The notes under the pieces: model-generated
What the model was told of the DNA's origin: nothing
The model's database searches: none
The model's input: the letters and a program-made list of their open reading frames with translations, nothing else
DNA from: a virus
Taxonomy: Duplodnaviria; Heunggongvirae; Uroviricota; Caudoviricetes
DNA length: 64,000 bases
Virus record (IMG/VR): IMGVR_UViG_3300030019_000001
Direction: 5' to 3' (one strand)
Part shown: positions 6,837 to 61,605 of the stretch, piece by piece
Numbering within the stretch: position 1 is the first letter of the stretch
Layout: each line of letters opens with the position of its first letter
Position numbers and translations under genes: made by a program

Positions 6837-7238
6837 ATGAAATATACTATGAATTATTTGAAAACTTTTGAAAAATATGATATATCTGATATAGATGATA
6901 TATTAAATCAAATATCAAATTTTTTAGATTCAAACACAAGAAATCTTTGGATATCTAATGATGAAATAAGTATATATATCAGAAGATCTAAAAGATCATT
7001 TAAAGGTAATGTATATGATTTTTTTGATTTTGCTAGTATAGATGTGACAGAACCAAATAATGGATTATTTACTAAAATACTTAAAAAATTTGAAGAAATA
7101 TATCCAGATAAAAACATTTTTATTGAATCTGTTCTAACTGATAGATTTGCTAATTATATTAAAAATGTTCTGAATTTTGAAGAAGAGTCTCCAAATTATA
7201 GCAACAATTTTTATAAAATAAAACAAATTATAAATTAA
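6837..7238 (+). CDS. hypothetical protein (MKYxxxYLKTFEKY leader family)
   Basis: 133 aa ORF. Confidence 0.45.
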   Translation: MKYTMNYLKTFEKYDISDIDDILNQISNFLDSNTRNLWISNDEISIYIRRSKRSFKGNVYDFFDFASIDVTEPNNGLFTKILKKFEEIYPDKNIFIESVLTDRFANYIKNVLNFEEESPNYSNNFYKIKQIIN

Positions 7239-7494
7239 ATATTTTTTTATTAAATTCAGAATAATCTTTATTTACAATTAAAATGTAAATATATCCCAAT
7301 TTTTTACATTCTTTTTCTTTTTCTATGTTCCTATCTTCATGAAATTTATACCAATATGATGATTTTATTTCAATTATCATATTTAATTTTTCTAAATAAA
7401 AATCTGGAAAATAAATTAAATTATCATTATTTAATTTGTATTTTATAGAAAACCCTCTTTTTATATTTCTTAATATTCCTATTTTTTCACACAA
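7228..7494 (-). CDS. PD-(D/E)XK (Vsr/DUF559-like) nuclease domain fragment; probably the C-terminal part of a split endonuclease gene
   Basis: FPDFYLEKLNMIIEIKSSYW..D..KE..L...GY matches the DFYLPE..LIIE.DG.YWH endonuclease core. The ORF needs a TTG start and lies in a different frame directly after the 7497..8300 ORF. Confidence 0.4.
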   Translation of the reverse strand: MCEKIGILRNIKRGFSIKYKLNNDNLIYFPDFYLEKLNMIIEIKSSYWYKFHEDRNIEKEKECKKLGYIYILIVNKDYSEFNKKIFNL

Positions 7495-7496
7495 TT

Positions 7497-8300
7497 CTAA
7501 AAATTTTTTTCGTATGATCCTTGATAAAATAAATTGGTATCTTTAAATTTTATCATCTTTTTAGAAGTATTTAAAATTTTATTTAAAATTTCTGTACATT
7601 GACTCGAATGATTTACTCCGTATTTAATTAAACATGTAGATTTAGTTTTTTCTTTTTTATCTTCAGATTGTAAATATTTTTCAACATCATATTTTTCTAA
7701 ACATGTTATTTTACTTTTCTCTTTAAATGATTCAGTTTGTACAAAGTACATTCCATTATTATCATTAAATTGTTTTAAAAACATTTTATTTTTTATTTTA
7801 GTATTTTCTAATGCATTTTTGCATCCATATCTTTCAATCATGGTGTTATTAAATTTTGATCTTATTTTTTTCGATTTAGATGGATGATCAACTCCTAAAT
7901 TTTTTAACCATGTAGTTTTAGCTTTATTTTTAAATAATTCACTTTTCATTGCATATTCAACTCCATATTTTTTCTTCATAATTTTTTTAATTTTTTCTGA
8001 AGCGCATTTTTTACAATAATATATATTCTCATGACAATATAAATATGAATTATTAATGCAATATAAATATGTTTTATACATCATACTTTTCTCTTTTCCA
8101 CAAGAATCACATATACCTATTATCATTATTTGATATCCTTTTTGTAAATGTTCAATAGGAATTTCTAATATATCATTAAAATTTACATTATATCCAAGAT
8201 CATTATAAATTTTTATTTTTTTTGTCGATATTTTTATTTTTATGATTTTTTCTTTTATCATTTTTACTATTAGTTTTTTTATATATACAATATACAACAC
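7497..8300 (-). CDS. zinc-ribbon plus repeated KYGV/ERYG motif protein (homing-endonuclease-like DNA-binding module)
   Basis: CDSCGKE...CKKCASE zinc ribbon, then repeats KYGVEYAMKSE / IERYGCKNALEN / LEKYDVEKYLQSE / LIKYGVNHSSQ. Confidence 0.45.
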   Translation of the reverse strand: MLYIVYIKKLIVKMIKEKIIKIKISTKKIKIYNDLGYNVNFNDILEIPIEHLQKGYQIMIIGICDSCGKEKSMMYKTYLYCINNSYLYCHENIYYCKKCASEKIKKIMKKKYGVEYAMKSELFKNKAKTTWLKNLGVDHPSKSKKIRSKFNNTMIERYGCKNALENTKIKNKMFLKQFNDNNGMYFVQTESFKEKSKITCLEKYDVEKYLQSEDKKEKTKSTCLIKYGVNHSSQCTEILNKILNTSKKMIKFKDTNLFYQGSYEKNF

Positions 8301-8362
8301 ATAAAATATATATAATTAAATCATAGTTATATTTAAATTTATATAAAAAATGAAATAAAAAT

Positions 8363-10517: not shown

Positions 10518-10523
10518 TATATT

Positions 10524-10561: not shown

Positions 10562-11071
10562 CTATTTTTCAAGAACATAAATTTGTATTTCTTCTTTGAA
10601 TTTATTGTTCCATTTTTCCAAATACTCCTCATATAACGCCTTATATGGTTGAGATGTTTTTATATATGGATAATTATTTCTTAATGTTCTAAATAGTTTT
10701 GTTGATGCTTCAAAATTATAAGGCTTTAATGCTGCAGTCAGCATAGATTTCAATTCTACGATTGATATATAATCTTTCTCTACTGTATAATCGATTTTTT
10801 CAAATGTATTTTCTGGTTCATATAAATCCAATTCTGTTTTAAATTTATCATACCATTTTTTTAAAAACGATGTATATATCTCTTTATATGGTGATTCTGT
10901 TTTTATATAAGGATAATCTGATTTTATACTTCTGAGAAGTTTTATAGAAGCTTCAAAATTGTTTAATTTAATTATAGATTCTAATTGTTCTTCTAATTCA
11001 TCTGTTGATATGTATTCCTTTTGTATGACATTATCAGCAATATTCTCATTGAATGTTTTTAATTTTCTCAT
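10562..11071 (-). CDS. hypothetical protein with internal tandem duplication
   Basis: Two ~80 aa repeats (..NFEASIKLLRSIKSDYPYIKTESPYKEIY.. and ..NFEASTKLFRTLRNNYPYIKTSQPYKALY..). Confidence 0.5.
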   Translation of the reverse strand: MRKLKTFNENIADNVIQKEYISTDELEEQLESIIKLNNFEASIKLLRSIKSDYPYIKTESPYKEIYTSFLKKWYDKFKTELDLYEPENTFEKIDYTVEKDYISIVELKSMLTAALKPYNFEASTKLFRTLRNNYPYIKTSQPYKALYEEYLEKWNNKFKEEIQIYVLEK

Positions 11072-11826: not shown

Positions 11827-12297
11827 TTAAAATCTTCTAATGATAGTTTTTCTTTTTTGTGGCTCTATTATTGGTTGTATATAAGGATCAATAGGCTTAT
11901 CATCACTATAATCATCAGTGAATAATTTGTCATTGTCTATATTATGATGTCTTTTTTTAGGTTCAAAAAAAGTGTCATTTGTTTCTACTTTTTCTTCATC
12001 TCTTTTCAACCTTTGATTTATAAATTCTCTAACATAATTATGAGCAGATTTCAAATCATCTTTCTTTTTATTTCTCAATCTTATACTTTCACCATCTTTA
12101 TTTTTCTTGAAAATTTTACAAATAAAAATTCCTCCTTTTTTCTGTATTCTAGCAAAATAATATGGTTCAACGTTTCCTGACTTATATTTAATAATTCCAC
12201 CAAATACAGTTGGATCATATTTAGCTTTACCGCTAGTAAATAATTTATCATCTATTATATTATCTTTCCAGTTTTCAAATGTTTTAATATTTTTCAT
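11827..12297 (-). CDS. hypothetical basic protein
   Basis: 156 aa, K/R-rich. Confidence 0.5.
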   Translation of the reverse strand: MKNIKTFENWKDNIIDDKLFTSGKAKYDPTVFGGIIKYKSGNVEPYYFARIQKKGGIFICKIFKKNKDGESIRLRNKKKDDLKSAHNYVREFINQRLKRDEEKVETNDTFFEPKKRHHNIDNDKLFTDDYSDDKPIDPYIQPIIEPQKRKTIIRRF

Positions 12298-18758: not shown

Positions 18759-19169
18759 TTACTCCTCATCCAAATTTTCAATATCATCTAAAAATTCAAT
18801 CTCATCTTCATCATCAATATTTATCAATTTTATGTCAGCATGATAATCTACGAAACTTTTCAATTCTTCTATCATATCATAAAAATCAGATTCATCTAAA
18901 CTATCAAGAAGATCAGCTAATTCATTTTTTGATGGTTCATAATCATCTTCATCTTTATAACCTTCTAAACTATTGGCACCTTGATTATCTAATATCTCCA
19001 ATACTTGATCAATAGCATCATGCTTATATTCCCAGTATGATTCAGTTTCGTTATTTACCCTTATTTCCCATTTATTTTCAATGTCATCATTATCTGTATT
19101 TTCTATTTCTTCTTCGTCAAATATATTTTCTTTAATATATTCAAACTCATTAAATTTTTTAAGACTCAT
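18759..19169 (-). CDS. highly acidic hypothetical protein
   Basis: 136 aa, D/E-rich. Confidence 0.5.
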   Translation of the reverse strand: MSLKKFNEFEYIKENIFDEEEIENTDNDDIENKWEIRVNNETESYWEYKHDAIDQVLEILDNQGANSLEGYKDEDDYEPSKNELADLLDSLDESDFYDMIEELKSFVDYHADIKLINIDDEDEIEFLDDIENLDEE

Positions 19170-43475: not shown

Positions 43476-43548
43476 GGCTTGGTATCCCAACGGCAGAGGA
43501 CGGCGTTTCAAATGCGTTTCAGTGAGGGTTCGAATCCCTCTCAAGCTA
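43476..43548 (+). tRNA. tRNA, class I, anticodon uncertain (best fold gives CAA)
   Basis: Acceptor GGCTTGG/TCAAGCT and a clear T arm GAGGG-TTCGAAT-CCCTC. The anticodon stem is weak (GGCGT/GCGTT with G-U pairs). Confidence 0.5.
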
Positions 43549-46743: not shown

Positions 46744-47009
46744 ATATTAAATTTATCTGTATTTTTTTTTAGTTTAACATATTGTTGTAATTTTCTTTTG
46801 TTATCTGAAAAATCTAATAGATAAGATTTATTTATATTAAGTCCTAGATTTGTTTCATATGAATCCCAATATATATTTATAATTTTATGAACTGTATAAT
46901 TGTATAGATTATTCATTTTTACATCATATGACATAGGACAGTCAAAAATTACATAATCACCTACTTTTGGTTCATCTTTTTTATTTTCAAATTTTTTTAT
47001 ATATTTCAA
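46740..47009 (-). CDS. array A member (MKYIKKFEN... / ...NTDKFNI)
   Basis: First gene of the minus-strand array. Confidence 0.5.
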   Translation of the reverse strand: MKYIKKFENKKDEPKVGDYVIFDCPMSYDVKMNNLYNYTVHKIINIYWDSYETNLGLNINKSYLLDFSDNKRKLQQYVKLKKNTDKFNI

Positions 47010-50377: not shown

Positions 50378-50412
50378 AAAAATAGCAGATTAACAATCTG
50401 CTATTTTTTTAT
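50376..50412. terminator. bidirectional intrinsic terminator
   Basis: aaaaaa-atagcagatt-aaca-atctgctat-ttttttt. Confidence 0.8.
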
Positions 50413-50999
50413 AAATTAAATTTTTTAGAATCTCTATACAACGGGTCATATTCAGTTCTAATTTTATCATACTCACTTAAAGTTGTTTGCCATATATATT
50501 CAAAATTTTCAACATATTCAAATGTCATAGCCATGTTAATAAATACATCATGATCGTTTATACATTTTTTTATAAATAGTTTTCCTTTGCCAATAACTGA
50601 GCTTATCAAATCTGAATAACCGTCATCTGATGGCATAAAAATATTATATTTCTCATCTAGCCAAATTGGTTTAAAATAATTAAAAAGTTCTTTATACAAT
50701 TTTTCATATTCATCATAAAAACTCATAATAGTATCATATTCAAAATTTTTAAATACTCTTATTTTCAACTTGAAATTTTCTGTTTTATTCTTCTGTCCAA
50801 TATTATTTCTACTCTTAATAATTTTATTCCAATCAGAAATTTTTATAAATTTCCAAAAAACTTCACTATAATTATTAACATCAGGTTTAATAAATCTAAT
50901 ATATTCGCCATTATCATTCATTGATATCAGAGAATTGTTTTTATCATAATAATATGAGTTATTATCTGAGCCTTCAAAAATTTTAAAATTTGTTATCAT
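50409..50999 (-). CDS. array B member (MITNFKIFEG... / ...DSKKFNL)
   Basis: 196 aa ORF. Confidence 0.5.
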   Translation of the reverse strand: MITNFKIFEGSDNNSYYYDKNNSLISMNDNGEYIRFIKPDVNNYSEVFWKFIKISDWNKIIKSRNNIGQKNKTENFKLKIRVFKNFEYDTIMSFYDEYEKLYKELFNYFKPIWLDEKYNIFMPSDDGYSDLISSVIGKGKLFIKKCINDHDVFINMAMTFEYVENFEYIWQTTLSEYDKIRTEYDPLYRDSKKFNL

Positions 51000-51001
51000 G
51001 T

Positions 51002-52159
51002 TTACATATTAAATTTATCAGAATCTACAATAAACATATATTTATTGAATTCTTCTTTTATTTGTGAATCTAACCTAAAATTAGAGTTTAAGATATTTAA
51101 AGATTCAGCTATCAAATCACCTTTTTCATCTTCTGTGTCATCTTCATATCCATTTTCCTTTATATATTCTTCTATATATCTTTTTTGAAAATCATATTCA
51201 TCTGAAATATCATCATTGTGAGTTCTTTTTTCTTCAAATAGTTCAAATAATAACAACGTTAGATTATCGGAGTCACCTGAATTATCCATTAGGTAATGTT
51301 GTATTTCTATACTATTTCCAATTTGTGATTCTACCCAACCATATTTTGAAACAGTATCTGTATTTCTTTTATAATATTCAACAAGTTTATTCTCATCTAT
51401 ATATACACTATAATTGTTATAAAAACCATTTGGTGTAAAATTATCAATCAATTCAACATAACTATCTACTCCTGTTTTTTCTGACATAACCTCAATGAAA
51501 GTGAGATATTCATATCTTTTGGTAATAGTTTCTTCTATAAATTCACCTTCTTCTGATTCATCTGTTATAATCTCTTGTAATTGATCTGAATCTAAATCAT
51601 CTAACATATCAGAATCATATTTCAATTCATCATTTTTTGCAATAATAGAGTTGGAACTAATTTCATCTCCATCTTCAACTACAACTGTAAAGTTATCAGG
51701 AATAATATATTCCTCCTTAGAATTATCCTCAGCTATTATAATTTTTTTGATGTTATCTTCCTCAATAATTGATACAATACCGTCATATTCAGATTTTATA
51801 ATCATATCATCATCATCATTATTATCATAATAAGATTCTATTATCTTATTTTCTTTAACTGATGTTAAATGATTATTAATATATTCTTTATATTCATAAT
51901 CATAAAAATCTCCAATATTTAGTTCTTTGACAGTTGAGTTAATGATATCTTGTATGTATTTATTATTATCAAAAACACTAGAAATTAAATTTGGATCATA
52001 AGTTAATATTTCTACAATATCAGATTCTGTTGGATTATCTAAATAATGTTCATCATAATAAGCTGATATATATTCGTCATCTAAAAAGTCATGTGACAAA
52101 TCATGTTTTGCGCTATCTGAACTTTCAAACATTTTAAATTTTTTGAAATTTGTTATCAT
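51002..52159 (-). CDS. array B member, acidic (MITNFKKFKMFESSD... / ...DSDKFNM)
   Basis: 385 aa, D/E-rich. Confidence 0.5.
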   Translation of the reverse strand: MITNFKKFKMFESSDSAKHDLSHDFLDDEYISAYYDEHYLDNPTESDIVEILTYDPNLISSVFDNNKYIQDIINSTVKELNIGDFYDYEYKEYINNHLTSVKENKIIESYYDNNDDDDMIIKSEYDGIVSIIEEDNIKKIIIAEDNSKEEYIIPDNFTVVVEDGDEISSNSIIAKNDELKYDSDMLDDLDSDQLQEIITDESEEGEFIEETITKRYEYLTFIEVMSEKTGVDSYVELIDNFTPNGFYNNYSVYIDENKLVEYYKRNTDTVSKYGWVESQIGNSIEIQHYLMDNSGDSDNLTLLLFELFEEKRTHNDDISDEYDFQKRYIEEYIKENGYEDDTEDEKGDLIAESLNILNSNFRLDSQIKEEFNKYMFIVDSDKFNM

Positions 52160-52267
52160 ACTATTTGTTTTATTTTGCTATTTTTTGCTGTTTTAATGAC
52201 ATCTAATGTCATAAATTATATCATTCAATTGATTTATCAGTTATATTATTAAATCTATAAAAACTCA

Positions 52268-53089
52268 TTACAAATTGAATTTATTGGTGTCATTAATAAT
52301 TTTCCAATTATTATAATAATCATCACTTAATACATTTGAATATTTATCTAATATTTCATAAATACCGTCTATATCTATTTGACTACTTTCACCTAAATTA
52401 TTAATAGTAGAATTTCTATCATATAAAAAATCTAAATTTTTATCTTTATCAATATTTGGAGTATAATAAGCATCAAAAATGTCAGTATCAAAATGAATAG
52501 AATATGTCAATTTTTTAGTTTTTAAATTGTAATATTGATGTATCTTTAATATCCAAGCTAATTTATCATTGTTAATATTGAATTTATTAAAATTATATAC
52601 AATAGTATCAATGTGAAAATTTCTATCTAGTTCATAATATAAATTACCTGGATTTTTTAATAATTTATCAAAATCATTATTATATTTCATTTTTACTACA
52701 ATATCATTAAAATATTTTGATATATTTTCATCTTTATTGATGTGTGAATTTATATCATACAATTTAGAAAAATAAAGAATTTTTTCTATTTCAGATATTT
52801 CTGATTCGAATTTTTTTAATATTCTAATATTCTCTTCTTTTTTGAATTTTTCACGACCTATTTTTTTGATATGTCTTTTTAGTTCTTTTTCTTTTTCTTC
52901 TAATCTTTTTCTATTTTCAGGATCATAATCTTGATATTTTTCTTTTGCAACATCAAGTCCTTTATTACCAATCAAATTCAAAAATTTAGTATATAAATCT
53001 GAATTCTCTTTTTTTACGTTATCTAAAAACTTGGCATTTTCTTTGTCTTGTAATATATCAAACACTTTAAATTCAAATATCTTTCTCAT
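52268..53089 (-). CDS. array B member (MRKIFEFKVFD... / ...DTNKFNL)
   Basis: 273 aa ORF. Confidence 0.5.
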   Translation of the reverse strand: MRKIFEFKVFDILQDKENAKFLDNVKKENSDLYTKFLNLIGNKGLDVAKEKYQDYDPENRKRLEEKEKELKRHIKKIGREKFKKEENIRILKKFESEISEIEKILYFSKLYDINSHINKDENISKYFNDIVVKMKYNNDFDKLLKNPGNLYYELDRNFHIDTIVYNFNKFNINNDKLAWILKIHQYYNLKTKKLTYSIHFDTDIFDAYYTPNIDKDKNLDFLYDRNSTINNLGESSQIDIDGIYEILDKYSNVLSDDYYNNWKIINDTNKFNL

Positions 53090-53092
53090 TCA

Positions 53093-53443
53093 TTATATAT
53101 TATATTTGTGTGTGTCATTTGTAAATTCTGGAACATAAAAATAATCTAGAAAATTTGGCAACTCATTGTAATTATTATTAATGTCAAATTCTTGCATTTT
53201 TTTAGTATCATCAAAAAACATAATAACTTTATTCATACATTCAATAGGCAAATAATTATTTATATTATATTTTTCAATTGATTTTTCAGCATCACCATAA
53301 AATCCAGCTACCTTATAACTATTTCCTTTTTTAAAAATTACATTTCTATCTTTATATTTCTTGTGATAATTTTTTATACACATCACATAATCATCAATCA
53401 TTCTTAAATCTGGATTTTTATATGCTTCAAATATTGTTATCAT
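53093..53443 (-). CDS. array B member (MITIFEAYKNPD... / ...DTHKYNI)
   Basis: 116 aa ORF. Confidence 0.5.
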   Translation of the reverse strand: MITIFEAYKNPDLRMIDDYVMCIKNYHKKYKDRNVIFKKGNSYKVAGFYGDAEKSIEKYNINNYLPIECMNKVIMFFDDTKKMQEFDINNNYNELPNFLDYFYVPEFTNDTHKYNI

Positions 53444-53445: not shown

Positions 53446-53811
53446 TTAATTGTCTTTATTATTTATAGTTTCTATTTTATTAATAGTGTAATTGATTAAT
53501 TCTTCATTTGATTTAAATTCAATAAATGCCATTGGCTCATCTTTTATGTTGAAATTTTTAATTTTTATTATCCATTCATCATAATTCAATCCTATAAAAT
53601 TATAAATATTTTTTATACTTACAATTATATCATTAGATATTAAATTAAAGCAAACATAAAATATTGCTTGCCTATCTTGATATTCATATTCTATTACTAT
53701 ACTATCAAATTCATCATTCTCAGTAAAAAACATTTCTACTAAATAATTACTTAATATTTTAGCTCTAGATTGAAGTTTAGAAATATTACAATTAAATTCA
53801 TCAATATTCAT
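53446..53811 (-). CDS. array B member (MNIDEFNCNIS...)
   Basis: 121 aa ORF with a TAATG overlap to the upstream gene. Confidence 0.45.
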   Translation of the reverse strand: MNIDEFNCNISKLQSRAKILSNYLVEMFFTENDEFDSIVIEYEYQDRQAIFYVCFNLISNDIIVSIKNIYNFIGLNYDEWIIKIKNFNIKDEPMAFIEFKSNEELINYTINKIETINNKDN

Positions 53812-54152
53812 TACACATTAAATTTATTTGTATCTAAATATAAACTATATGCATTTTTTGCAGCTTCAATAGTATCATAAGATGATATAACATAAACCTC
53901 ATTAATAGTTAATATATCAGTAGATTTAATATCGAAATGAAATTCTTTTACATCCCATATATAAAAATCAAGATCAACACGATTAAGATCATTTATATTA
54001 TTAAATTTTGCAAGATAAAAATCTTTTTGATATCTAAATATTACAAATTTACCATAATATTTTTTATAATCTAATTTTTTATCAATCATATTTTTGTTGA
54101 TTTTTTTTATAGAATCTTCAATAGCATTTTCAAAATTTTTAATGTATTTCAT
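53811..54152 (-). CDS. array B member (MKYIKNFENAIED... / ...DTNKFNV)
   Basis: 113 aa ORF. Confidence 0.5.
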   Translation of the reverse strand: MKYIKNFENAIEDSIKKINKNMIDKKLDYKKYYGKFVIFRYQKDFYLAKFNNINDLNRVDLDFYIWDVKEFHFDIKSTDILTINEVYVISSYDTIEAAKNAYSLYLDTNKFNV

Positions 54153-54485: not shown

Positions 54486-54624
54486 TATTGTTATATGTTG
54501 AATTTTTCTGTTGAATTAAGAATATCTATATCTTTTTTATTTTTACTTTTCTAACTATCATAAACTAATATAGTATCTTATCTGCTTATATTATTTGATT
54601 CAAAATATTTAAAATATATCATAA

Positions 54625-55209
54625 TTAAACATTAAATTTACTTATATCAATTCTCAAGTCTGAATTTTCCTTATATTTTGGAAATTTGTTAGTTACATAT
54701 TTTTCTATCTCATCTATATAATCATCTTTGTGACTATTAAATTTCTTAAAATCTAATAAACAATCATAGAAATTTTCACCATCACTATTTTTAATATCAA
54801 GATCTAATCCAGCTTTTAAAAATTTTTCTAATAACATAATAAATGTACCAGCATCATAGAAATAAGATAGATATTTTATTATAGCTGTTTCTCCGTTTAT
54901 ATCTTGAATATTCACATCAGCCTTTGCATTTAACAATTTGTTAATTACTATTGGAGTTGAAGCCATCATCAATGCTGTATTTTTATTCTTGTCTGTTTCA
55001 TTAACATCAGCGTCGCCTTCTATTAAAGCATCGACAACAAATGGAAATTTAATAGCGTGCATCAATGCTGTTTTACCATCAGAGTCTTTCATATTAACAT
55101 CAACTCCTTCTTTTATCGCTTGTTTTACTACACTAGTACTTCCTCTTTTTGCAGATGATATAAATGGTGGTTCCTTTACTGATCTTTCAAATAATCTTAA
55201 ATATTTCAT
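54625..55209 (-). CDS. ankyrin-repeat protein (MKYLRLFERSVKE... / ...DISKFNV)
   Basis: GKTALMHAIKF...VVDALIEGDADVNETDKNKNTALMMA...LLNAKADVNIQDINGETAI. Confidence 0.6.
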   Translation of the reverse strand: MKYLRLFERSVKEPPFISSAKRGSTSVVKQAIKEGVDVNMKDSDGKTALMHAIKFPFVVDALIEGDADVNETDKNKNTALMMASTPIVINKLLNAKADVNIQDINGETAIIKYLSYFYDAGTFIMLLEKFLKAGLDLDIKNSDGENFYDCLLDFKKFNSHKDDYIDEIEKYVTNKFPKYKENSDLRIDISKFNV

Positions 55210-55279
55210 ATTAAACTGTTAAATTTTTATTATAAGTGTATATATAAATTTTCACAATTATAAAATAATATATACTATC

Positions 55280-55816
55280 ATGAAATATTTAAAGCAATAC
55301 GAAGCATACATTGAGATGTATTTAGATGATGATGATCAATTAACATTAATGAAAGAATATCTTGATAATGAAGATTTATCAAAAATAAATAAAATATTAA
55401 ATAGTGGATTTGATCCTAATACAAAATATGGAATTCATCCTGTAATATACGATCTTCAAGATAAAAATAAGGACAAATCAAATTCTAATATATTAAAATC
55501 ATTTATTGAACATGGACTAGATAATAAAATCATTACAATTTTTTTATATAATGAATTAAATTGGACTAGATATGCAGTAGATAAATTAAATCTATTAGAA
55601 ATATCTAAAATTTGTATTAAGTCTGGAGCAGATTTATTTTATGATTATGGTTTGTATAGTGATTTTTTTGATATGATCGAAAAAAAGAAAACAACATTTA
55701 AATCATTATTCACAGAAAAATTTGTGAATGATTTAATGAGTATCATTAAAGAAGAAGCTTCAGAGCAATATGACAAATATATAATACAAAAAAACTCAAA
55801 AAAATTTAACATATGA
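55280..55816 (+). CDS. ankyrin-like protein (MKYLKQYEAYIEMY... / ...NSKKFNI)
   Basis: Paralog of 55813..56361. Confidence 0.5.
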   Translation: MKYLKQYEAYIEMYLDDDDQLTLMKEYLDNEDLSKINKILNSGFDPNTKYGIHPVIYDLQDKNKDKSNSNILKSFIEHGLDNKIITIFLYNELNWTRYAVDKLNLLEISKICIKSGADLFYDYGLYSDFFDMIEKKKTTFKSLFTEKFVNDLMSIIKEEASEQYDKYIIQKNSKKFNI

Positions 55817-56361
55817 AATATTTAAAAACCTATGAAAAAATGATGACATTAGAGTTAGATATTGATGATCAAGAAGAATTGATGACAAAAGCATTAGAAT
55901 ATAATAAAATTAATCTAGTAAAAGGACTTCTTGATAATGGATTTGACCCAAATTATATTGTAACACACTATGGTGTACCTCTATTACTTTATCAATTATC
56001 TGATAACACAACAAAATTGGATATTGATATATTAAAATTATTAATAGACAAAGGAGCCGATGTTAATCTTATGATAAATGGATCACCTTTAATCTCTGGT
56101 GCAATAACTTTATATCACAGAAAAAGTACAGATAAAGAATATAGAGATAAATATTTAGAAGCTATCAGATTATTTATTAAATCTGGCGCAGATTTAACAG
56201 CAAGAGACGATGAAAAAGAAAATTCATTTGATACAATTCAAAATATGATAGATTATGGATATTTTAAACCTATTTTTACAAAAAGATTATTGAAGATTAT
56301 TGAAGAAGAAGCACCAGAACAATATGGAATTTACATAACATCTAAAAAGTATAATATATAA
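55813..56361 (+). CDS. ankyrin-repeat protein (MKYLKTYEKMMTLE... / ...TSKKYNI)
   Basis: LVKGLLDNGFDPNY...LLIDKGADVNLMINGSPLISGAI. ATATGA overlap with the previous gene. Confidence 0.55.
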   Translation: MKYLKTYEKMMTLELDIDDQEELMTKALEYNKINLVKGLLDNGFDPNYIVTHYGVPLLLYQLSDNTTKLDIDILKLLIDKGADVNLMINGSPLISGAITLYHRKSTDKEYRDKYLEAIRLFIKSGADLTARDDEKENSFDTIQNMIDYGYFKPIFTKRLLKIIEEEAPEQYGIYITSKKYNI

Positions 56362-56395
56362 AAAAAAATCCTGATTTCTCAGGATTTTTTTTATT
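56360..56395. terminator. bidirectional intrinsic terminator
   Basis: aaaaaaaa-atcctga-tttc-tcaggat-tttttttt. Confidence 0.8.
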
Positions 56396-57857
56396 TATCG
56401 ATAAATAACTTATTATCAGGGGGCCAATGTATATGTGGCGCTTCCATTGTGTCAGTAATTACCCACAATATTTTTTCAAAGTATTTAGGAATACCATATT
56501 TAAATTTGTCTGGTACTGTACCTGCTGCATCTGTAAAATATATTACAAACGAAGGAATAGTTCCTTTTTGTATTAGATTCTTTTCAATCCATTGGAAAGG
56601 TGGAACAAAACTTGTACCTCCACCACCTTTTGCTTTGAAGTGTCTACCAAGAATTTCCTTAAATTTACCTTCATTCATTGAATCTCCGCTCTTTGTTCTA
56701 AGATTAATTCTTTCTATTCCTTTCACTTCATCATCACACCATATAATTATAGCTTCTTCAATTTTCTTTGAACCAAAAATACCATAAATTTCAGATGCAA
56801 ATCTACCAAGTGTTTCATCTCCAATTGATCCTGATGTATCAATACACAAAACTATTGTTCTGAATCCACTATCTTTAGGATATTTCAATCCTGGTAAATA
56901 CAATGGATCATCTTGTCCAATAAATCTTTTATTAAAATAACCATATTTAGGATTACTTGAAAAACATTTATTCATAAATTTAACTAATGATGCTTTCCAA
57001 TTGACTTTTGGTTTTCCAATTTTGTTAAACCATCTATTCAATGATTGAGATCCAGTTCCTTGATTATTACTTTTTGCATTATTTAATATTTCTCCCCATT
57101 TTTTTGCTAAATCTTCTGGACTTTCCATTTTGCTTAATTCATCACTACCATCGAATAATGTTGCACCTTTTTTATCATTTAAACTACCTGGAGCACACAA
57201 ATCACCTGCACCTGGAATTGAACTACCTGGCTTTCCTTGACCCTGCCCTGGTTTACCTTGTCCTGGTTTACCCTGACCTTCACCTTCTCCATCACCTTCT
57301 CCATCACCTTCTCCTTTTTTCTTTGGTTTCGCTTGCTCTTCTTTTTCAAGAATTACATAGATTTGCTCTGCACTCATATCACGATATTTTTCATCTAATA
57401 GAATATTTGTTGGTACTCTTAATATATCAGGTTTACTTGTTGCACCGTCAGGAGTTTCTTTACTCATATCAGATATTTGAAGATTAATTGCATAATCTGC
57501 TGCTTGATTCCATAAATCATGATTTCTGTTACCTTGTCTCATAAAGTGAAGATTTGCATTGTGCATAACTTCGTGTATCAAAACAAATGCTACTTCCTCT
57601 GTGTTTTTTAATACATTGTTAACAAATTCAGGATTATATAAAATATTTTGCCCATCAGTAGCCATAGTATTTATACCACTTCCTGGTGATGCTTCTGCAA
57701 TATTTAATTGAAAGAACAAATCTGCAAAGAAATTATAGTAAGCCATAACAGATGTTAAAGCTGCTCTTACTTTACCTTTAGCCATTTTGTTTAATTTTGG
57801 ATCAGTAAAATCTTCATTTATACCCAAAAAACTAAATGTATTGAATTTTTTTATCAT
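56391..57857 (-). CDS. VWA-domain protein with N-terminal HExxH metallopeptidase-like domain (MoxR-associated, DUF2201-like)
   Basis: FVLIHEVMHNANLHF carries HExxH. MIDAS motif IVLCIDTSGSIGDE. A low-complexity GEGDGEGDGEGEGQGKPGQGKPG linker separates the two. Confidence 0.65.
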   Translation of the reverse strand: MIKKFNTFSFLGINEDFTDPKLNKMAKGKVRAALTSVMAYYNFFADLFFQLNIAEASPGSGINTMATDGQNILYNPEFVNNVLKNTEEVAFVLIHEVMHNANLHFMRQGNRNHDLWNQAADYAINLQISDMSKETPDGATSKPDILRVPTNILLDEKYRDMSAEQIYVILEKEEQAKPKKKGEGDGEGDGEGEGQGKPGQGKPGQGQGKPGSSIPGAGDLCAPGSLNDKKGATLFDGSDELSKMESPEDLAKKWGEILNNAKSNNQGTGSQSLNRWFNKIGKPKVNWKASLVKFMNKCFSSNPKYGYFNKRFIGQDDPLYLPGLKYPKDSGFRTIVLCIDTSGSIGDETLGRFASEIYGIFGSKKIEEAIIIWCDDEVKGIERINLRTKSGDSMNEGKFKEILGRHFKAKGGGGTSFVPPFQWIEKNLIQKGTIPSFVIYFTDAAGTVPDKFKYGIPKYFEKILWVITDTMEAPHIHWPPDNKLFIDK

Positions 57858-57879: not shown

Positions 57880-59415
57880 TTATTCTCCTGCCATAGTTTT
57901 TTGTAATACTACATGCCATTTTTTAGCAAAATCTAACCATACATCTTGATATTCAGTTTTAATATATGGATGTGCTTTTACAAAATAAGATGCAATAGCA
58001 ACAATTGCTTCATTTTCTTTACCTCTTGTAGCAAAATCATATACATTTTTAACTTCTTCCTTAGAAATATGTTTACCTTGTTTAAAAGTAGCAATAGCAA
58101 TTGAGCAAGCTCTAATTTGATCTTGTCTAGTTGGCCATTTTACATTTTTAGATTTTTCATTACCATCATAAATATCTTGTATATCTTGTTCACTAAAGAA
58201 CTCCTGTAATTTCATATAATTAACAAAATCCATAGCTGATTCTAATCCTACATATTTAGTGTATATTCTTTGAATTTCTGGATATGTTAATTTATTTGTC
58301 CAATCTTCATCTCTCTCATTGAATTCATCCTGTGATGCCATTTCCCATGTTCTTGGTGATGCCCAACCTGGACTTTTAGATTCTTTATCCAATCTATGAA
58401 AGTAATTAGGATGATACTGTAAATATGAAATAAGAAATGGATCAATGTCTTTTCTTGTTAATGCATATTTAACCCAATCTTCAACTGATGGTGAATAATT
58501 CACATGAGCAAAACGATTCCACAAAATAGGATCATCTGTCAAATCAGTAGTATCAATATCTTCTTTTCTATTGCCTGCTGCAATAATAATCCATCTTGGA
58601 GGTAAATCATAATCACCATGTTTACCACTTAATGCTAATGCCAATGATGCACTAAGAACCATTTGTGGTGCTCTGTTCATTTCATCAAAAAACATAATAC
58701 CACCTTTACCATTTCCATCACTAGTTGGAAATATCGCTGGTAATTTAGAAACAGTTTTATCATTTTCAATTTTAGGTACTCCTCTAAAGTCTGTAGGCTC
58801 AATTTGAGATAAATGCCATTCTTGAACAACAATATCTAAATCCTTTGCTACTTGATGTAATATTTCTGTTTTACCAATACCAGGAGCACCCCAAATAAAT
58901 AATGCATGTGTTTTTTTTCTAGCAAATTCTGAACCTTTATCATAGTTCTCTTGTTCATGTTGACCTGCTCTATGTAAATTCATATTATAAACTCTCTTTA
59001 TTCTTTCTTTAAGTTTCTCTACATTAACATTTCTCATTACTTCTTCATCTCCACTTGGATAATTCAACGTTACCATTGCTTCATCTACACTAGTTTCATT
59101 TTCAATTCTATCACCTTTTTCATTAAATCTTGAACGTATTTCAGATTCAATTTCTTCTGCTGTAGGCGTTTTAGCACCTTTCATATTATCAAGATAACCA
59201 TCAGGAATAATTACTTCTACAACATCCCTAGTTTTGCCATTCTCATCTACATAAGTTGGTATTTCTCCTTTATCTTTTAAATATTTTGAATAATATAGCC
59301 ATGCATTTTTACCAAATTTTGTTTTGAAAAAACCATATAACTTATTCCACGCATTTTTTAATAGATTTTCATTTAATTTATATTCTTCAGAATAACTATC
59401 ATATTTCTTTATCAT
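57880..59415 (-). CDS. MoxR-like AAA+ ATPase, paralog 1
   Basis: Walker A IWGAPGIGKTEI, Walker B GIMFFDEMNRA, sensor IIAAGNR. Confidence 0.7.
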   Translation of the reverse strand: MIKKYDSYSEEYKLNENLLKNAWNKLYGFFKTKFGKNAWLYYSKYLKDKGEIPTYVDENGKTRDVVEVIIPDGYLDNMKGAKTPTAEEIESEIRSRFNEKGDRIENETSVDEAMVTLNYPSGDEEVMRNVNVEKLKERIKRVYNMNLHRAGQHEQENYDKGSEFARKKTHALFIWGAPGIGKTEILHQVAKDLDIVVQEWHLSQIEPTDFRGVPKIENDKTVSKLPAIFPTSDGNGKGGIMFFDEMNRAPQMVLSASLALALSGKHGDYDLPPRWIIIAAGNRKEDIDTTDLTDDPILWNRFAHVNYSPSVEDWVKYALTRKDIDPFLISYLQYHPNYFHRLDKESKSPGWASPRTWEMASQDEFNERDEDWTNKLTYPEIQRIYTKYVGLESAMDFVNYMKLQEFFSEQDIQDIYDGNEKSKNVKWPTRQDQIRACSIAIATFKQGKHISKEEVKNVYDFATRGKENEAIVAIASYFVKAHPYIKTEYQDVWLDFAKKWHVVLQKTMAGE

Positions 59416-59447
59416 CTTATTATATTTTATTTTTATTATATATATTT

Positions 59448-60872
59448 TTAAATATTATCACCTCTTCTAAGTTTACCATCTTTACCTTCTTTCTTTCTTT
59501 CTTCTTCACGTTCCTTTTCGTCTAATTTCATAAGAAAGTTTACAAATGCAGTTGCACTAGCATATCCAACAAAATCTTCATATATATCTTTTACTTCATT
59601 ATATGACAATTTGTTTTTCCAATCAAATCCTCTTTCAAAATAATCTTCTTCTGATGCCATTTCCCATGTTCTTGGTGATGTCCAATTTGGTGCTTGATTA
59701 ACAGTTTTTAATCTATGATAATATTCTGGATTTTCTTTAATAAATTGTATAAGTTTAGGATTAATTGATTTTATATTTTTTGCATATCCAATCCAATCAG
59801 ATGGTTTTGGGGCAAAATTGATATGTTGAAATCTATTCCACAAAATCTTATCTTCTGTTAAATCTCCTGTACTTAAATCTGAACCTCTATTACCTGCTGC
59901 AATAACTATCCAATATTGAGGCAATTCATAACTACCATGTTTACCACTTAATGCTAATGATAATGATGCATCAAGAACCATTTGTGGTGCTCTATTCATT
60001 TCATCAAAAAACATTATACCACCTTTTCCGTTTTTACCATTGCTGGTAGGAAATATTGATGGTAATTTCCAAACAGTTCTTTCATCTTTTGAATCATCAG
60101 AGCCCATAATATTTTCAATTCTAGGAATACCTCTAAAGTCAGTAGGCTCAATTTGTGATAAATGCCATTCAATTACAGCAATTTCCAATTCTCTAGCTAC
60201 TTGATGCAAGATTTCTGTTTTTCCAATTCCAGGAGCACCCCAAATAAATATTGCATTTGTTTTTCTTCTAGAATATTCTCTACCATTTTCTCCTTCTTCT
60301 TGATGCCTACCTGCTCTAAGTGCATTCATTTTGTAAAGCTTAATTACTTCTTTTTTTAATTCTGCAACATCATCATTAAGAACTGTTGGATCTGGATGCT
60401 CTAAACTTACAAATTCATCATTATCATCTAAAACGCTTTCATTCAAAAATAAATTCATCAAACTTTCTTTAACTTTCTCCAATTCTTCTATTTCATCATT
60501 TACTACTTTTTCTTCTTCATCATTATCACCAACAGTTTCATCTGATCCGTCGATGCCAGGAATTTCTTTTTCCTTTTCATCTTCTACTGTTTCATCATCT
60601 GGTTGAATTTCAGATGCTTCTATTTCTTCATCAGAAGGCAAGTCAGACGTTTTAGCATATCCTGGAGGACATATAAAATCTATACCTCTTGGTAATTTAC
60701 CCTTTTTCTGTAAATACAATGCATAATATACCCATGCATGTTTTCCAAAATGTTGTTTAAAGAAACCAATAATCTTGTTTAAAATATCAGAAAATACATT
60801 TTCATTTATTTTTACACTTTCATTTTCTCTATACTCTTTAGAAAAATGATCATAATTTTTTAATGTTTTCAT
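59448..60872 (-). CDS. MoxR-like AAA+ ATPase, paralog 2 (with acidic N-terminal insert)
   Basis: Same motifs as paralog 1 (IWGAPGIGKTEI, GIMFFDEMNRA, VIAAGNR), plus a D/E-rich insert. Confidence 0.7.
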   Translation of the reverse strand: MKTLKNYDHFSKEYRENESVKINENVFSDILNKIIGFFKQHFGKHAWVYYALYLQKKGKLPRGIDFICPPGYAKTSDLPSDEEIEASEIQPDDETVEDEKEKEIPGIDGSDETVGDNDEEEKVVNDEIEELEKVKESLMNLFLNESVLDDNDEFVSLEHPDPTVLNDDVAELKKEVIKLYKMNALRAGRHQEEGENGREYSRRKTNAIFIWGAPGIGKTEILHQVARELEIAVIEWHLSQIEPTDFRGIPRIENIMGSDDSKDERTVWKLPSIFPTSNGKNGKGGIMFFDEMNRAPQMVLDASLSLALSGKHGSYELPQYWIVIAAGNRGSDLSTGDLTEDKILWNRFQHINFAPKPSDWIGYAKNIKSINPKLIQFIKENPEYYHRLKTVNQAPNWTSPRTWEMASEEDYFERGFDWKNKLSYNEVKDIYEDFVGYASATAFVNFLMKLDEKEREEERKKEGKDGKLRRGDNI

Positions 60873-60945
60873 TCTACGAAATTATTTTTGTTTTTATATA
60901 TAAAAATTTATATTTCCTTTTTTAATAAAAATGAATAAATTTTAA

Positions 60946-61605
60946 TTATCTATTATAATGCTTACACTCAGATGAATATTTTGCTTGTCTCCATCTAATA
61001 TCATTCATTGTACCCCATGCTGTTTTACTCGATCCACCTTGAATTTGTGGACGACTACCTGAAGATATTTTTTCTGCTTTTTCTTTTGCATTCATTAAAT
61101 GCCATAATTTTTCTCTATCTGATACATTTTCAGATCCTGAATATTGTTCAATAGGAATTAACTCTTCTAAATCAAAATCAATATCAGAATTATAATAATT
61201 ATCAACATCCTCACTATATTCAGTTTTCATTATTTCTCCATTTTTTCTAACAACTTCTATTTTCCAGCCATTATTAAAAATTTTAATATTTAATTCATTC
61301 TCAATTTTTTTAATAATAGATTTAAATAATAATATGTTAGGATATGTCCAAAATGATATTATCTTATTATTAGTCCATAATCTACCAGGATAACATGGAT
61401 TATCTATTTCATGCCCAGCATTATAATGAGAATCAGTAAAATCTCCAAAATATACATTTATAACATTTGTGTGATTATCATTCACATCACAATAAAAAGG
61501 TTTAGAATCAGAATCATCCATATCACACAACTTATCACCATTCTTATCTCGTACATAACTTGGATTTTCTTTTAATAGTTTAAAATTTTCAAATTTTTTA
61601 ATCAT
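60946..61605 (-). CDS. hypothetical protein (MIKKFENFKLLKE leader)
   Basis: 219 aa, directly upstream of the MoxR pair. Confidence 0.5.
   Translation of the reverse strand: MIKKFENFKLLKENPSYVRDKNGDKLCDMDDSDSKPFYCDVNDNHTNVINVYFGDFTDSHYNAGHEIDNPCYPGRLWTNNKIISFWTYPNILLFKSIIKKIENELNIKIFNNGWKIEVVRKNGEIMKTEYSEDVDNYYNSDIDFDLEELIPIEQYSGSENVSDREKLWHLMNAKEKAEKISSGSRPQIQGGSSKTAWGTMNDIRWRQAKYSSECKHYNR

What the first reader, a model, noticed from the sequence alone, without database searches (positions are those of the whole stretch)
6837..61605. Conserved N-terminal leader M-K-(Y/K)-(L/I)-K-x-F-E on more than 20 unrelated proteins, including enzymes
The following proteins all begin with this leader, most with F-E or I-N-E at residues 7-10. 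They are 6837 (MKYTMNYLKTFEKY), 10562 (MRKLKTFNEN), 11827 (MKNIKTFENW), 19615 (MKYLKTFEKM), array A, 45662 ankyrin (MKFIKKFED), 46126 HAD nucleotidase (MKHIKMFETF), array B, 54625 ankyrin (MKYLRLFER), 55280 (MKYLKQYEAY), 55813 (MKYLKTYEKM), the VWA protein (MIKKFNTF), both MoxR ATPases (MIKKYDSYSEEY, MKTLKNYDHFSKEY) and 60946 (MIKKFENFKL). Because functionally different proteins share it, it is not a domain. It looks like a signal peptide-like tag. One reading is a capsid- or virion-targeting / prohead-protease propeptide like the T4 CTS, which is cleaved after (L/I)xE. Another is an injection signal. A third is a nucleotide-level translation-initiation module adapted to SD-less initiation. 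Any of these would mark a defined set of co-regulated or co-packaged accessory proteins.
Basis: partly seen in the sequence, partly recalled or inferred. Interest (0 to 1): 0.75.

Follow-up and report, generated by a model that had tools for sequence, protein, structure and literature searches.

The report
T4-like capsid-targeting leader on huge-phage proteins
About two dozen unrelated proteins in this AT-rich huge-phage fragment start with the same short peptide, which closely matches the tag phage T4 uses to load proteins into its capsid for injection; many also share a previously undescribed C-terminal tail, so the phage probably delivers a large, fast-changing set of effector proteins with its DNA.

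Summary
21 strong and 5 weak carriers (20 BLAST-distinct families) begin with M-K-x-Φ-K-x-[FY]-[EDN] or M-K-x-Y-x-x-F-I-x-E. A Bacteroides phage of identical GC has 0 of 135.

Array A's MKKYNQFINE matches the T4 capsid-targeting sequence MKTYQEFIAE at 6 of 10 positions, including the four shown experimentally to matter (4 and 7 for targeting, 8 and 10 for cleavage).

- The leader is a 13-residue add-on to an NT5C nucleotidase.
- It is separated from protein cores by indel-rich linkers.
- Synonymous-codon patterns point to peptide-level, not RNA-level, selection.
- It covers about 9% of ORFs in a complete 642 kb relative that has a T4-type portal, S77 protease and gp23 capsid module.

It sits on 16 window ORFs, co-occurs with the leader, and is confined to the low-GC sub-lineage.

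Best reading is a T4-type capsid-targeting propeptide marking packaged and injected cargo (confidence about 0.6). Packaging and cleavage are inferred. No protease gene was found in the window or linked to its genome. The tail's function is unknown. This is a new variant of a known kind.

The parts
6849..7238 (+). Leader-only carrier, MNYLKTFEKY (start revised from 6837 to the second ATG); ORFan
   Evidence: PWM 8.5; no Pfam or PHROG hit
10562..11071 (-). Weak leader variant MRKLKTFNEN (F7-N8-E9); ORFan
   Evidence: PWM 1.5
11827..12297 (-). Leader-only carrier MKNIKTFENW; ORFan
   Evidence: PWM 9.8
18759..19169 (-). Weak leader variant MSLKKFNEFE; ORFan
   Evidence: PWM 2.5
19615..20736 (-). 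Leader-only carrier MKYLKTFEKM, 373 aa ORFan
   Evidence: PWM 15.9; no Pfam or PHROG hit
29075..29401 (+). Tail-only ORF (...STKKFNL), N-terminus MTVYSFGEYY is not a leader
37020..37409 (+). Doubtful leader variant MKNVKEFVEQ (F7-V8-E9)
   Evidence: PWM -10.7; fits only the Phi-x-E reading
43546..44091 (-). Array A end member, leader MIHIKKFEFY plus tail ...SKKFNV
   Evidence: PWM 17.4, tail
44088..45665 (-). Array A: four ATGA-overlapping genes (44088-44462, 44459-44875, 44872-45237, 45234-45665). Each has the long T4-like leader MKKYNQFINE and a tail ...[KN]KFNI
   Evidence: 6 of 10 identical to T4 MKTYQEFIAE; family P0001-P0008; AF2
45662..46129 (-). Ankyrin-repeat protein with leader MKFIKKFED plus tail ...EKFNL
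   Evidence: Pfam Ank_2/4
46126..46743 (-). NT5C/HAD 5'-nucleotidase with the 13-aa leader add-on MKHIKMFETFTNK, no tail
   Evidence: Pfam NT5C from residue 13; DxDxT at residue 19 against mode 6 in 98 homologues
46740..47009 (-). Small ORF with a TTG start, leader (M)KYIKKFENK plus tail ...TDKFNI
   Evidence: PWM 18.7
50409..53443 (-). Array B part 1: 50409-50999 (MITNFKIFE), 51002-52159 (MITNFKKFKMFE), 52268-53089 (MRKIFEFKVF), 53093-53443 (MITIFEAY). All carry tails ...K[FY]N[LMI]
   Evidence: orthologues in L004, L005 and L013 keep both ends
53811..54152 (-). Array B part 2: leader MKYIKNFENA plus tail ...TNKFNV. The intervening 53446-53811 has neither signature
   Evidence: PWM 19.2
54625..55209 (-). 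Ankyrin-repeat protein, leader MKYLRLFER plus tail ...SKFNV
   Evidence: Pfam
55280..56361 (+). Two overlapping paralogues (55280-55816 MKYLKQYEAY; 55813-56361 MKYLKTYEKM, weakly ankyrin-like), both with tails ...KK[FY]NI
56391..57857 (-). DUF2201 metallopeptidase/VWA-like protein with weak leader variant MIKKFNTF
   Evidence: Pfam; PWM -0.8
57880..60872 (-). Two paralogous AAA+ (MoxR-like) ATPases: 57880-59415 MIKKYDSY (weak) and 59448-60872 MKTLKNYD (PWM 5.7). Homologues in L008 and LR756502 lack a leader
60946..61605 (-). Leader carrier MIKKFENFKL; ends ...KHYNR (degenerate tail)
   Evidence: PWM 6.5

Best explanation
The leader is a T4-type capsid-targeting sequence (CTS). It is a short N-terminal amphipathic propeptide with hydrophobic or aromatic residues at positions 4 and 7 (and often 10-11), Lys at 2 and 5, and the first Glu at 8-10. 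It can be attached to any protein.

Proposed mechanism:
- During prohead assembly the leader binds the scaffolding core. In this clade the scaffold is probably the long C-terminal extension fused to the S77/S80 prohead protease.
- The carrier is thereby trapped inside the shell.
- The gp21-family protease then probably removes the leader C-terminal to a Glu.
- The cargo stays in the head and is ejected with the DNA, so it can act at the very start of infection in anti-defence or host-takeover roles.

Shown: the signature itself, its portability across unrelated folds, its add-on nature, peptide-level selection, its match to the experimentally defined T4 CTS, and its co-occurrence with T4-type head genes in the clade.

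Inferred: binding to the core, cleavage, packaging and injection.

The C-terminal tail ([YLW]-E-Phi-Phi-x-[DN]-[ST]-[KN]-K-[FY]-N-[LIVM]-COOH) is a second signal specific to this sub-lineage, carried by a subset of leader proteins. Its role is unknown.
For: (1) T4 CTS = MKTYQEFIAE. Targeting depends on residues 4 and 7, processing on 8 and 10. Array A MKKYNQFINE is identical at 1, 2, 4, 7, 8 and 10. Relatives have MKSFLEFITE, MKNYNEFLFE and MKTFKEFINE.

[quoted passage not shown] The same pattern holds here: 26 carriers in 20 families. In LR756502, 102 carriers fall into 89 families, with no family shared between the two genomes.

(3) A PWM trained only on proteins chosen by their C-terminal tail finds a leader on 52 of 60. 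It ranks T4 IPII #4, IPIII #5 and IPI #13 of 260 ORFs.

(4) Within one orthologous family the long and short leader forms interchange while M1, K2 and F7 stay invariant. Indel-rich linkers separate leader and tail from the core. AF2 gives pLDDT<50 for residues 1-8.

(5) NT5C: the catalytic DxDx[TV] is at residue 19 here, against a mode of 6 in 98 homologues.

(6) Codon tests: synonymous usage at conserved positions equals background, and hydrophobic positions use up to 8 different codons. One carrier has a TTG start.

(7) Relatives have S77 protease, T4 portal and gp23 MCP on the same contigs as leader genes. The complete 642 kb relative has the head module and 88 of 937 leader ORFs, two of them directly upstream of the portal.

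(8) Carriers there are accessory types: lysozyme, SET, GNAT, HNH and 67 ORFans. Proteins of >=700 aa lack the leader, apart from one weak match (797 aa, MRYLKQREEF, PWM 8.2).

(9) Controls: 0 of 135 in SJC03, 0 of 30 in L008.
Against: - There is no direct evidence of packaging, cleavage or injection.
- No S77 protease, portal or MCP is in the window or could be physically linked to its contigs. The window's only direct T4 homologue is thymidine kinase.
- The canonical [LI]-x-E site is present in only 35% of leader proteins. In the short form Glu directly follows Phe, which is a different register from T4.
- Carriers are not basic (median pI 5.8), unlike T4 IPs.
- 9% of a proteome (about 60-90 species) is far more cargo than in any characterised phage.
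- The PWM is permissive: three of its top five T4 hits (nrdC.3, gp61.1, nrdC.5) are not known head proteins.
- A TATATA[ACT] promoter-like motif shared with head genes is not specific to leader genes (p=0.18).
- The tail has no counterpart in T4.
Confidence: 0.6

Rival explanations
1. The leader (and tail) is a sorting or recognition tag for a destination other than the capsid. Examples are a phage-built compartment, the membrane, a phage chaperone or secretion route, or a hub protein that binds short terminal peptides.
For: - It is portable, sits at the terminus, is under peptide-level selection and is detached from the folds. All of this is equally expected for any sorting tag.
- The number of carriers (88 of 937) is high for capsid cargo.
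- Carriers are acidic to neutral, not DNA-binding basic proteins.
- The tail ends Phi-x-Phi-COOH, like ligands of peptide-binding domains (the comparison is from my own knowledge).
Against: - The leader matches a tag whose destination is known experimentally (the T4 capsid) at exactly the functional residues.
- It is restricted to a clade with T4-type head genes and is absent from other AT-rich phages.
- Leader genes are inserted inside head modules.
- The leader has no hydrophobic h-region, so it is not a Sec, Tat or lipoprotein signal (direct reading).
Confidence: 0.15
2. There is no signal. The conserved ends are what remains of one hugely expanded paralogous family, or of repeated 5' and 3' gene-end capture by recombination. 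In that case the conserved gene boundaries act as homology arms for cassette shuffling in hyperplastic arrays.
For: - Many carriers are small ORFans in tandem, ATGA-overlapping arrays.
- Both gene ends are conserved, so tail-stop-start-leader junctions repeat along the arrays.
- Leader and tail co-occur, with OR about 32, not corrected for phylogeny.
- Leader/tail genes occupy variable insertion sites in head modules.
Against: - The leader sits on Pfam-distinct folds: ankyrin, HAD, AAA+, C39, ExoX-like, lysozyme, SET, GNAT and HNH.
- The conserved positions are amino-acid classes spread over different codons, and stop codons vary.
- Only 18 of 60 tails overlap a downstream ATG.
- The leader is more conserved (77%) than the cores (61%) in diverged orthologues.
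- Recombination may well spread the tag, but it does not explain its maintenance.
Confidence: 0.1
3. The termini are degrons. The N-terminal and/or C-terminal motifs are recognised by a Clp-type unfoldase and protease (the phage encodes ClpP), which times the destruction of a set of accessory proteins.
For: - The window encodes a bona fide ClpP (35131-35886, E=2e-54).
- ClpX recognises both N- and C-terminal short motifs, and the MuA C-terminal tag RRKKAI resembles ...KKFNI in being basic then hydrophobic (my own knowledge, not tested).
Against: - ClpP homologues are also present in the tail-less 642 kb genome, so ClpP does not track the tail.
- A degron does not explain the identity to the T4 CTS.
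- No ClpX-like gene was seen in the window.
Confidence: 0.06
4. It is a nucleotide-level translation-initiation module for SD-less, AT-rich mRNAs, or simply AT-rich codon bias at N-termini.
For: - There is no SD upstream of the genes.
- All genes show a mild preference for A/T-ending codons in codons 2-8.
- Lys at codon 2 is common genome-wide (36% of ORFs).
Against: - The control phage SJC03, with identical GC and an SD-less host, has 0 of 135.
- Leader synonymous usage is the same as in other genes' 5' ends (AAA 0.74 vs 0.75). Position-5 Lys is 41% AAG, His3 is 61% CAC, and position 4 uses 8 codons.
- One carrier has a TTG start.
- The leader is absent from MCP, portal and all but one (a weak match) of the proteins of >=700 aa.
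- The leader adds 13 residues to an enzyme.
- The internal Met-anchored rate is 0.2% against 9.4% at N-termini.
Confidence: 0.03

Closest known systems
Phage T4 capsid targeting sequence (CTS) of internal proteins IPI/IPII/IPIII and Alt (Mullaney & Black 1996; reviewed in PMC9026906, PMC3012670, PMC12373910)
   Same: - An N-terminal leader of about 10 residues is shared by otherwise unrelated proteins.
- The consensus is M-K-x-[YF]-x-x-F-[IL]-x-E, and array A is identical to T4 at the four experimentally important positions.
- Genes cluster in hyperplastic loci with rapid cargo turnover.
- Cargo includes host-modifying enzymes (compare Alt).
- The clade has gp20, gp21-family and gp23 homologues.
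   Different: - The scale differs: 21-26 carriers in 64 kb, and about 60-90 (9% of ORFs) in a complete 642 kb relative. T4 has about 5, and about 10 Ip types are known across the T-evens.
- The dominant form is a shorter variant (M-K-[YH]-[LI]-K-x-[FY]-E) without the [LI]-x-E register.
- Cargo is not basic.
- The protease is fused to a long scaffold-like region.
- An additional C-terminal tail exists that T4 lacks.
- Nothing here has been tested experimentally.
Propeptides of ejection/inner-head proteins in phiKZ-like giant phages (SPN3US, phiKZ, 201phi2-1; PMC5694885)
   Same: - Many inner-head proteins are processed by a T4-gp21-related protease C-terminal to Glu.
- Paralogues have conserved N-termini, which are thought to target them to the prohead.
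- Dozens of head proteins are involved.
   Different: - Those propeptides are mostly long (>100 aa) and are not a shared short consensus.
- Their cleavage motif is A/S/G-x-E.
- No portable 8-13-aa tag has been described on unrelated enzymes.
Terminal cargo-loading/scaffold-tail peptides of HK97-fold shells (encapsulin cargo-loading peptides; C-terminal coat-binding tails of P22 and herpesvirus scaffolds). Comparison from my own knowledge
   Same: A short terminal peptide is enough to load a protein into an HK97-fold shell. It can sit at the C-terminus, like the tail found here.
   Different: There is no sequence similarity, and nothing was tested here. It is offered only as an analogy for what the tail might do.

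Membership tests
T4-type CTS / internal-protein system | N-terminal leader of about 10-19 aa with consensus M-K-x-[YF]-x-x-F-[IL]-x-E (targeting residues 4 and 7) | tested here: met
   Array A MKKYNQFINE is 6 of 10 identical to MKTYQEFIAE, including positions 4, 7, 8 and 10. The short form keeps Phi4 and F7. The tail-trained PWM ranks T4 IPII #4, IPIII #5 and IPI #13 of 260.
T4-type CTS / internal-protein system | The leader is the only similarity among otherwise unrelated carriers | tested here: met
   26 carriers fall into 20 families, and 102 carriers in LR756502 fall into 89 families, with none shared. The Pfam folds are distinct.
T4-type CTS / internal-protein system | The leader is a separable propeptide, not part of the mature fold | tested here: met
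   It is a 13-aa extension relative to 98 NT5C homologues. Indel-rich linkers follow the leader. AF2 pLDDT is <50 for residues 1-8.
T4-type CTS / internal-protein system | gp21-family (S77) prohead protease with T4-type portal, scaffold and MCP in the same genome | tested here: inconclusive
   These genes are not in the window, and no physical link to its contigs was found. They are present on the same contigs as leader/tail genes in relatives L015, L028, L030 and L035, and in the complete relative LR756502.
T4-type CTS / internal-protein system | Cleavage site (L/I)-x-E at the end of the leader | tested here: inconclusive
   I-N-E at 8-10 is present in the long form. [LI]xE in residues 6-13 occurs in 35% of leader proteins against 13% of others. 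The first Glu is at position 8 in 41 of 91, directly after F7, which is a different register.
T4-type CTS / internal-protein system | Carriers are packaged in the head, N-terminally processed and injected | not testable with these tools
   This needs virion proteomics or a reporter assay.
T4 internal proteins (IPI-III) in the narrow sense | Small, highly basic proteins | tested here: not met
   Carriers have a median pI of 5.75 and include enzymes of 205-511 aa. Alt shows that this is not required for CTS use.
Sec/Tat/lipoprotein signal peptides | Hydrophobic h-region after a basic n-region | tested here: not met
   The leader alternates charged and aromatic residues (K2, K5, E8) and has no hydrophobic stretch (direct reading).
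Single paralogous protein family / shared N-terminal domain | Detectable homology beyond the termini | tested here: not met
   BLASTP of leader-trimmed proteins links only a few pairs.
RNA-level translation-initiation element | Nucleotide conservation beyond what the peptide requires, and presence in other SD-less AT-rich phages | tested here: not met
   Synonymous usage equals background. SJC03 has 0 of 135.

The most novel reading that the evidence does not exclude
Huge phages of this clade use a two-part virion-loading code. A T4-derived N-terminal CTS marks up to about 9% of the proteome as capsid cargo. In the low-GC sub-lineage, a second C-terminal K-[FY]-N-Phi tail defines a subclass of that cargo. 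It could bind a different site such as the capsid floor, control retention after the leader is cut, or set the order of ejection. If so, the complete 'injectome' of uncultivated huge phages could be read directly from sequence.
Probability: 0.2. Interest if true: 0.8.

Novelty: new variant of a known kind. Interest (0 to 1): 0.6.

Why it matters
If the leader works as in T4, it gives a purely sequence-based way to list the proteins that uncultivated huge phages (up to 735 kb) pack into their heads and inject. That amounts to dozens per genome, mostly ORFans, plus nucleotidases, ankyrins, AAA+/VWA systems, peptidases, lysozyme, SET and GNAT enzymes.

These would be prime candidates for anti-defence and host-takeover functions. 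It would also extend a classic T4 mechanism across a deep, environmentally abundant clade.

The cargo sets turn over completely between relatives while the tag is kept, which is the signature of an arms-race toolkit. The C-terminal tail has no described counterpart that I could find.

Tried and rejected
- **PHROGs and Pfam on array proteins:** no hits.
- **Megablast of the array region against phages:** nothing.
- **Promoter idea:** TATATA[ACT] occurs upstream of leader genes and of head genes in relatives. It is not specific, at 9 of 20 against 25 of 90, p=0.18.
- **"Conserved upstream DNA AAATTTAAYAT":** this turned out to be the tail codons of the upstream gene, not a regulatory motif.
- **Foldseek of the array A model against PDB:** no significant match, weakly SH3-like.
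- **Linking an S77 protease or MCP to the window's own genome:** a single-sequence probe, a profile probe, a big-database search looking for the 711,471 bp contig, a degenerate MCP DNA probe and local hmmsearch/phmmer all failed to give a physical link.
- **ClpP as the tail's partner:** ClpP is also present in the tail-less genome.
- **The 256-aa leader protein upstream of the LR756502 portal:** it is not the orthologue of the conserved pre-portal protein; it is an insertion.
- **Scaffold-fusion C-terminus (QLDRFKSVFDKLNS):** it resembles the leader only loosely, with different spacing. I kept it as a lead, not as evidence.
- **crAssphage as a control:** the accession was not in the collection, so Bacteroides phage SJC03 was used instead.

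Full report
**What the window is.** The window has 23-24% GC, is densely coded and has no Shine-Dalgarno sequences.
- Its NAD-ligase is closest (42%) to the 635-642 kb uncultured "huge phages" LR745206 and LR756502.
- It has a weak T4 gp9/10-like baseplate domain at 48566-50377, LAGLIDADG and other homing endonucleases, a true ClpP and a thymidine kinase.
- An array A protein is found unchanged on contigs up to 711,471 bp.
- Close relatives (83-93% identity) are in IMG/VR contigs up to 235 kb.

- A loose regex hits 17 of 109 ORF starts against 2.1% of internal windows (p=2e-10).
- The aromatic-plus-acid/Asn pair peaks at residues 7-8, with 13 observed against about 3.2 expected at any offset.
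- With the first 14 residues removed, the carriers share almost nothing. Twenty-six carriers form 20 BLAST-distinct families, and Pfam confirms ankyrin, NT5C/HAD, DUF2201/VWA-like and AAA+ folds.

Three corrections apply. ORF 6837 probably starts at 6849, which puts F at position 7. ORF 46740-47009 carries a perfect leader on a TTG start. The VWA, one MoxR, 10562, 18759 and 37020 leaders are weak variants.

Sixteen to seventeen ORFs end in [KH][FY]N[ILVM]-stop, against about 0.6 expected.
- The "conserved upstream DNA" before several start codons is simply these tail codons in ATGA-overlapping genes.
- The tail is really a module of about 13 residues: [YLW]-E-Phi-Phi-x-[DN]-[ST]-[KN]-K-[FY]-N-[LIVM].
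- Only 18 of 60 unique tails overlap a downstream start, so the tail is not a coupling signal.
- Leader and tail co-occur (30/29/33/1036 over 1128 unique ORFs; OR about 32; not corrected for phylogeny).
- Almost every tail protein has a leader. Many leader proteins, including the NT5C and the AAA+ ATPases, have no tail.
- The tail is confined to loci below 28% GC: 63 of 741 ORFs against 1 of 605.

**Match to the T4 capsid-targeting sequence.** The T4 CTS is MKTYQEFIAE. Amber-suppressor work places targeting at residues 4 and 7 and processing at 8 and 10.
- Array A reads MKKYNQFINE, which is identical at positions 1, 2, 4, 7, 8 and 10.
- Relatives have MKSFLEFITE, MKNYNEFLFE (on a C39 peptidase), MKNYIQFLNE, MKTFKEFINE and MKRYLEFIKE.
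- To avoid circularity I trained an N-terminal PWM only on proteins selected by their C-terminal tail. 52 of the 60 turned out to have a leader.
- Among 260 T4 ORFs that PWM ranks IPII #4, IPIII #5 and IPI #13.
- It also ranks nrdC.3, gp61.1 (MKTFKEFIKE) and nrdC.5 highly, so it is permissive.
- The literature states that T-even Ips share nothing but this leader, and that at least 10 Ip types were found through it.

**The leader is a portable peptide, not a domain and not an RNA element.**
- *Orthologue family.* In P0001-P0008 (42-100% identity) the long form MKKYNQFINE and the short form MKYIKTFE replace each other. M1, K2, F7 and the K-x-N tail stay invariant. Both ends are separated from the conserved core by indel-rich linkers.
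- *Structure.* AF2 (pLDDT 74) gives residues 1-8 pLDDT<50 as a detached short helix, a low-confidence linker to about residue 30, a confident beta-rich core and a C-terminal helix bearing the tail.
- *Add-on.* In 98 NT5C homologues the catalytic DxDx[TV] starts at residue 6-10 (mode 6). In the window enzyme and its close relatives it starts at 19. Different leader forms (MKHIKMFETF, MIKTFEKFSH) sit on the same enzyme.
- *Conservation.* In 32 diverged orthologue pairs the leader is 77% identical against 61% for the cores.
- *Codons.* Synonymous usage at conserved positions equals the genomic background. The last tail residue uses ATA, TTA, ATG, GTT, GTG, TTG, GTA and ATT, and the stop codons vary. 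In the 31.5% GC relative, leader codons 2-8 use AAA 0.74 against 0.75 in other genes, position-5 Lys is 41% AAG, His3 is 61% CAC and position 4 uses eight codons.
- *Negative control.* Bacteroides phage SJC03 (23.2% GC, SD-less host) has 0 of 135 ORFs with PWM>=6. L008 has 0 of 30 and T4 has 4 of 245.

**Link to T4-type head assembly.** The window itself has no S77, portal or MCP, and thymidine kinase is its only direct T4 homologue. I could not physically link such genes to its contigs. Relatives that carry the same signatures do have them.
- L015 has a Peptidase_S77 about 4.5 kb from its NT5C-plus-array locus, and L014 has a UvsW-like helicase.
- L023, L028, L030 and L035 have Portal_T4 (7e-63), an S77/S80 protease fused to a scaffold-sized region, and Gp23 (5e-24). 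Small leader-plus-tail genes are inserted at variable places among them.
- That protease-fusion family has 3,982 members, including contigs of 735,411, 678,337 and 639,979 bp.

The complete 642 kb genome LR756502 shares ligase, g3396 and g9360 homologues with the window and has the full head module.
- 88 of its 937 ORFs (9.4%) score PWM>=6, against 0.2% of internal Met windows, and 59 match the strict short form.
- Two leader genes sit directly upstream of the portal as insertions.
- Of 71 carriers of at least 100 aa, only four have a Pfam domain (lysozyme, SET, GNAT, HNH). Among proteins of 700 aa or more, only one (797 aa, PWM 8.2, a weak match) scores as a carrier.
- No cargo family is shared with the window.

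**Mechanism.** I commit to the T4-type reading, with confidence of about 0.6.
- The leader is an amphipathic helix that docks the carrier onto the scaffolding core during prohead assembly.
- The gp21-family protease probably removes it after a Glu.
- The cargo is ejected with the DNA.

The signature, portability, peptide-level selection, homology to the T4 tag and clade-level co-occurrence with the head genes are shown. Binding, cleavage, packaging and injection are inferred.

Weak points:
- Only 35% of leader proteins have [LI]-x-E in residues 6-13, and the first Glu usually follows F7 directly.
- Carriers are not basic.
- The number of carriers is unprecedented.
- The tail has no T4 counterpart.

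**Rivals.**
- Another sorting destination: confidence about 0.15.
- Paralogy or cassette-boundary recombination with no signal function: about 0.10.
- Clp degrons: about 0.06. ClpP does not track the tail.
- An RNA-level or compositional origin: about 0.03, contradicted by several independent tests.

**Novelty.** The kind of element, a CTS on unrelated internal proteins, is known from T-even phages. New here are:
- its presence in a distant clade of environmental huge phages;
- its scale (dozens of carriers, about 9% of ORFs);
- enzyme cargo;
- a dominant shorter variant;
- a co-occurring C-terminal tail for which I found no description. Literature searches returned nothing on CTS in huge phages.

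I rate it a new variant of a known kind, with interest 0.6.

Noticed in passing
window 43546-46129, 46740-47009, 50409-53443, 53811-56361, 29075-29401: A conserved C-terminal tail of about 13 residues ending K-[FY]-N-[LIVM]-stop sits on 16-17 ORFs. It co-occurs with the leader, is restricted to relatives below 28% GC and is absent from the 642 kb relative and from T4. Its function is unknown.
   Followed up: yes
window 46740-47009 (-): This ORF starts at TTG and then reads KYIKKFENK, a perfect leader. An ATG-only gene call truncates it and hides the leader.
   Followed up: yes
window 21319-22176 (+); also 25846, 26108, 27921: A separate tandem array of four small overlapping genes (67-81 aa) all start MKYKVGDIV/MRYKVGAVV, each preceded by AAAAATTGA/AAAAATTAA. 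Further small genes with K(K)GD/E.V motifs lie nearby. They have no leader or tail and are possibly SH3-like.
   Followed up: no
window 35131-35886 (+) and 38352-39311 (+): A bona fide ClpP protease (Pfam E=2e-54) and a weak Band_7-like membrane protein. ClpP homologues (two copies) are also in LR756502.
   Followed up: partly
window 42284-43474 (+) and 7497-8261 (-): A LAGLIDADG/HTH homing endonuclease lies directly beside array A, and there is a second homing-endonuclease-like ORF. The relatives' head modules are also littered with endonuclease-like ORFs starting MI(L/I)(T/S)K.IE(I/V)K.
   Followed up: no
L015 4701-5249: A stand-alone 182-aa Peptidase_S77 paralogue sits among non-structural genes (bactofilin, nucleotidyltransferase, epimerase). 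It is 44-47% identical to the N-terminal protease domain of the about 790-aa protease-scaffold fusion found in head modules.
   Followed up: partly
L023 9908-12280 and 120 homologues (P0022-P0141): The protease-scaffold fusion has a strongly conserved amphipathic C-terminus (QLDRFKSVFDKLNS) that loosely resembles the leader. It could be the coat-binding end of the scaffold. This is a lead only.
   Followed up: partly
T4 (L074) 18966-19130, gene 61.1: T4 gp61.1 begins MKTFKEFIKE, which is as CTS-like as IPI (MKTFKEFTST...). The record annotates it only as a hypothetical protein.
   Followed up: no
LR756502 219909-220433 and 221232-222002: A conserved head-module protein ends ...LKKFNL in this genome, while its orthologues elsewhere end ...LKDKGLIP. 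The inserted leader protein next to the portal ends ...IKFNI. These are tail-like endings in an otherwise tail-less genome and may be chance (3 matches against about 1.3 expected).
   Followed up: partly
LR756502 91808-94084: A 758-aa ORF begins MLRKYGQFINEE, which is the long T4-like leader shifted by one residue.
   Followed up: no
window 51002-52159 upstream (about 52160-52220): A perfect hairpin, ATGACATTAGATGTCAT, lies just upstream of the array B gene 51002. It may be a terminator or a regulatory stem.
   Followed up: no
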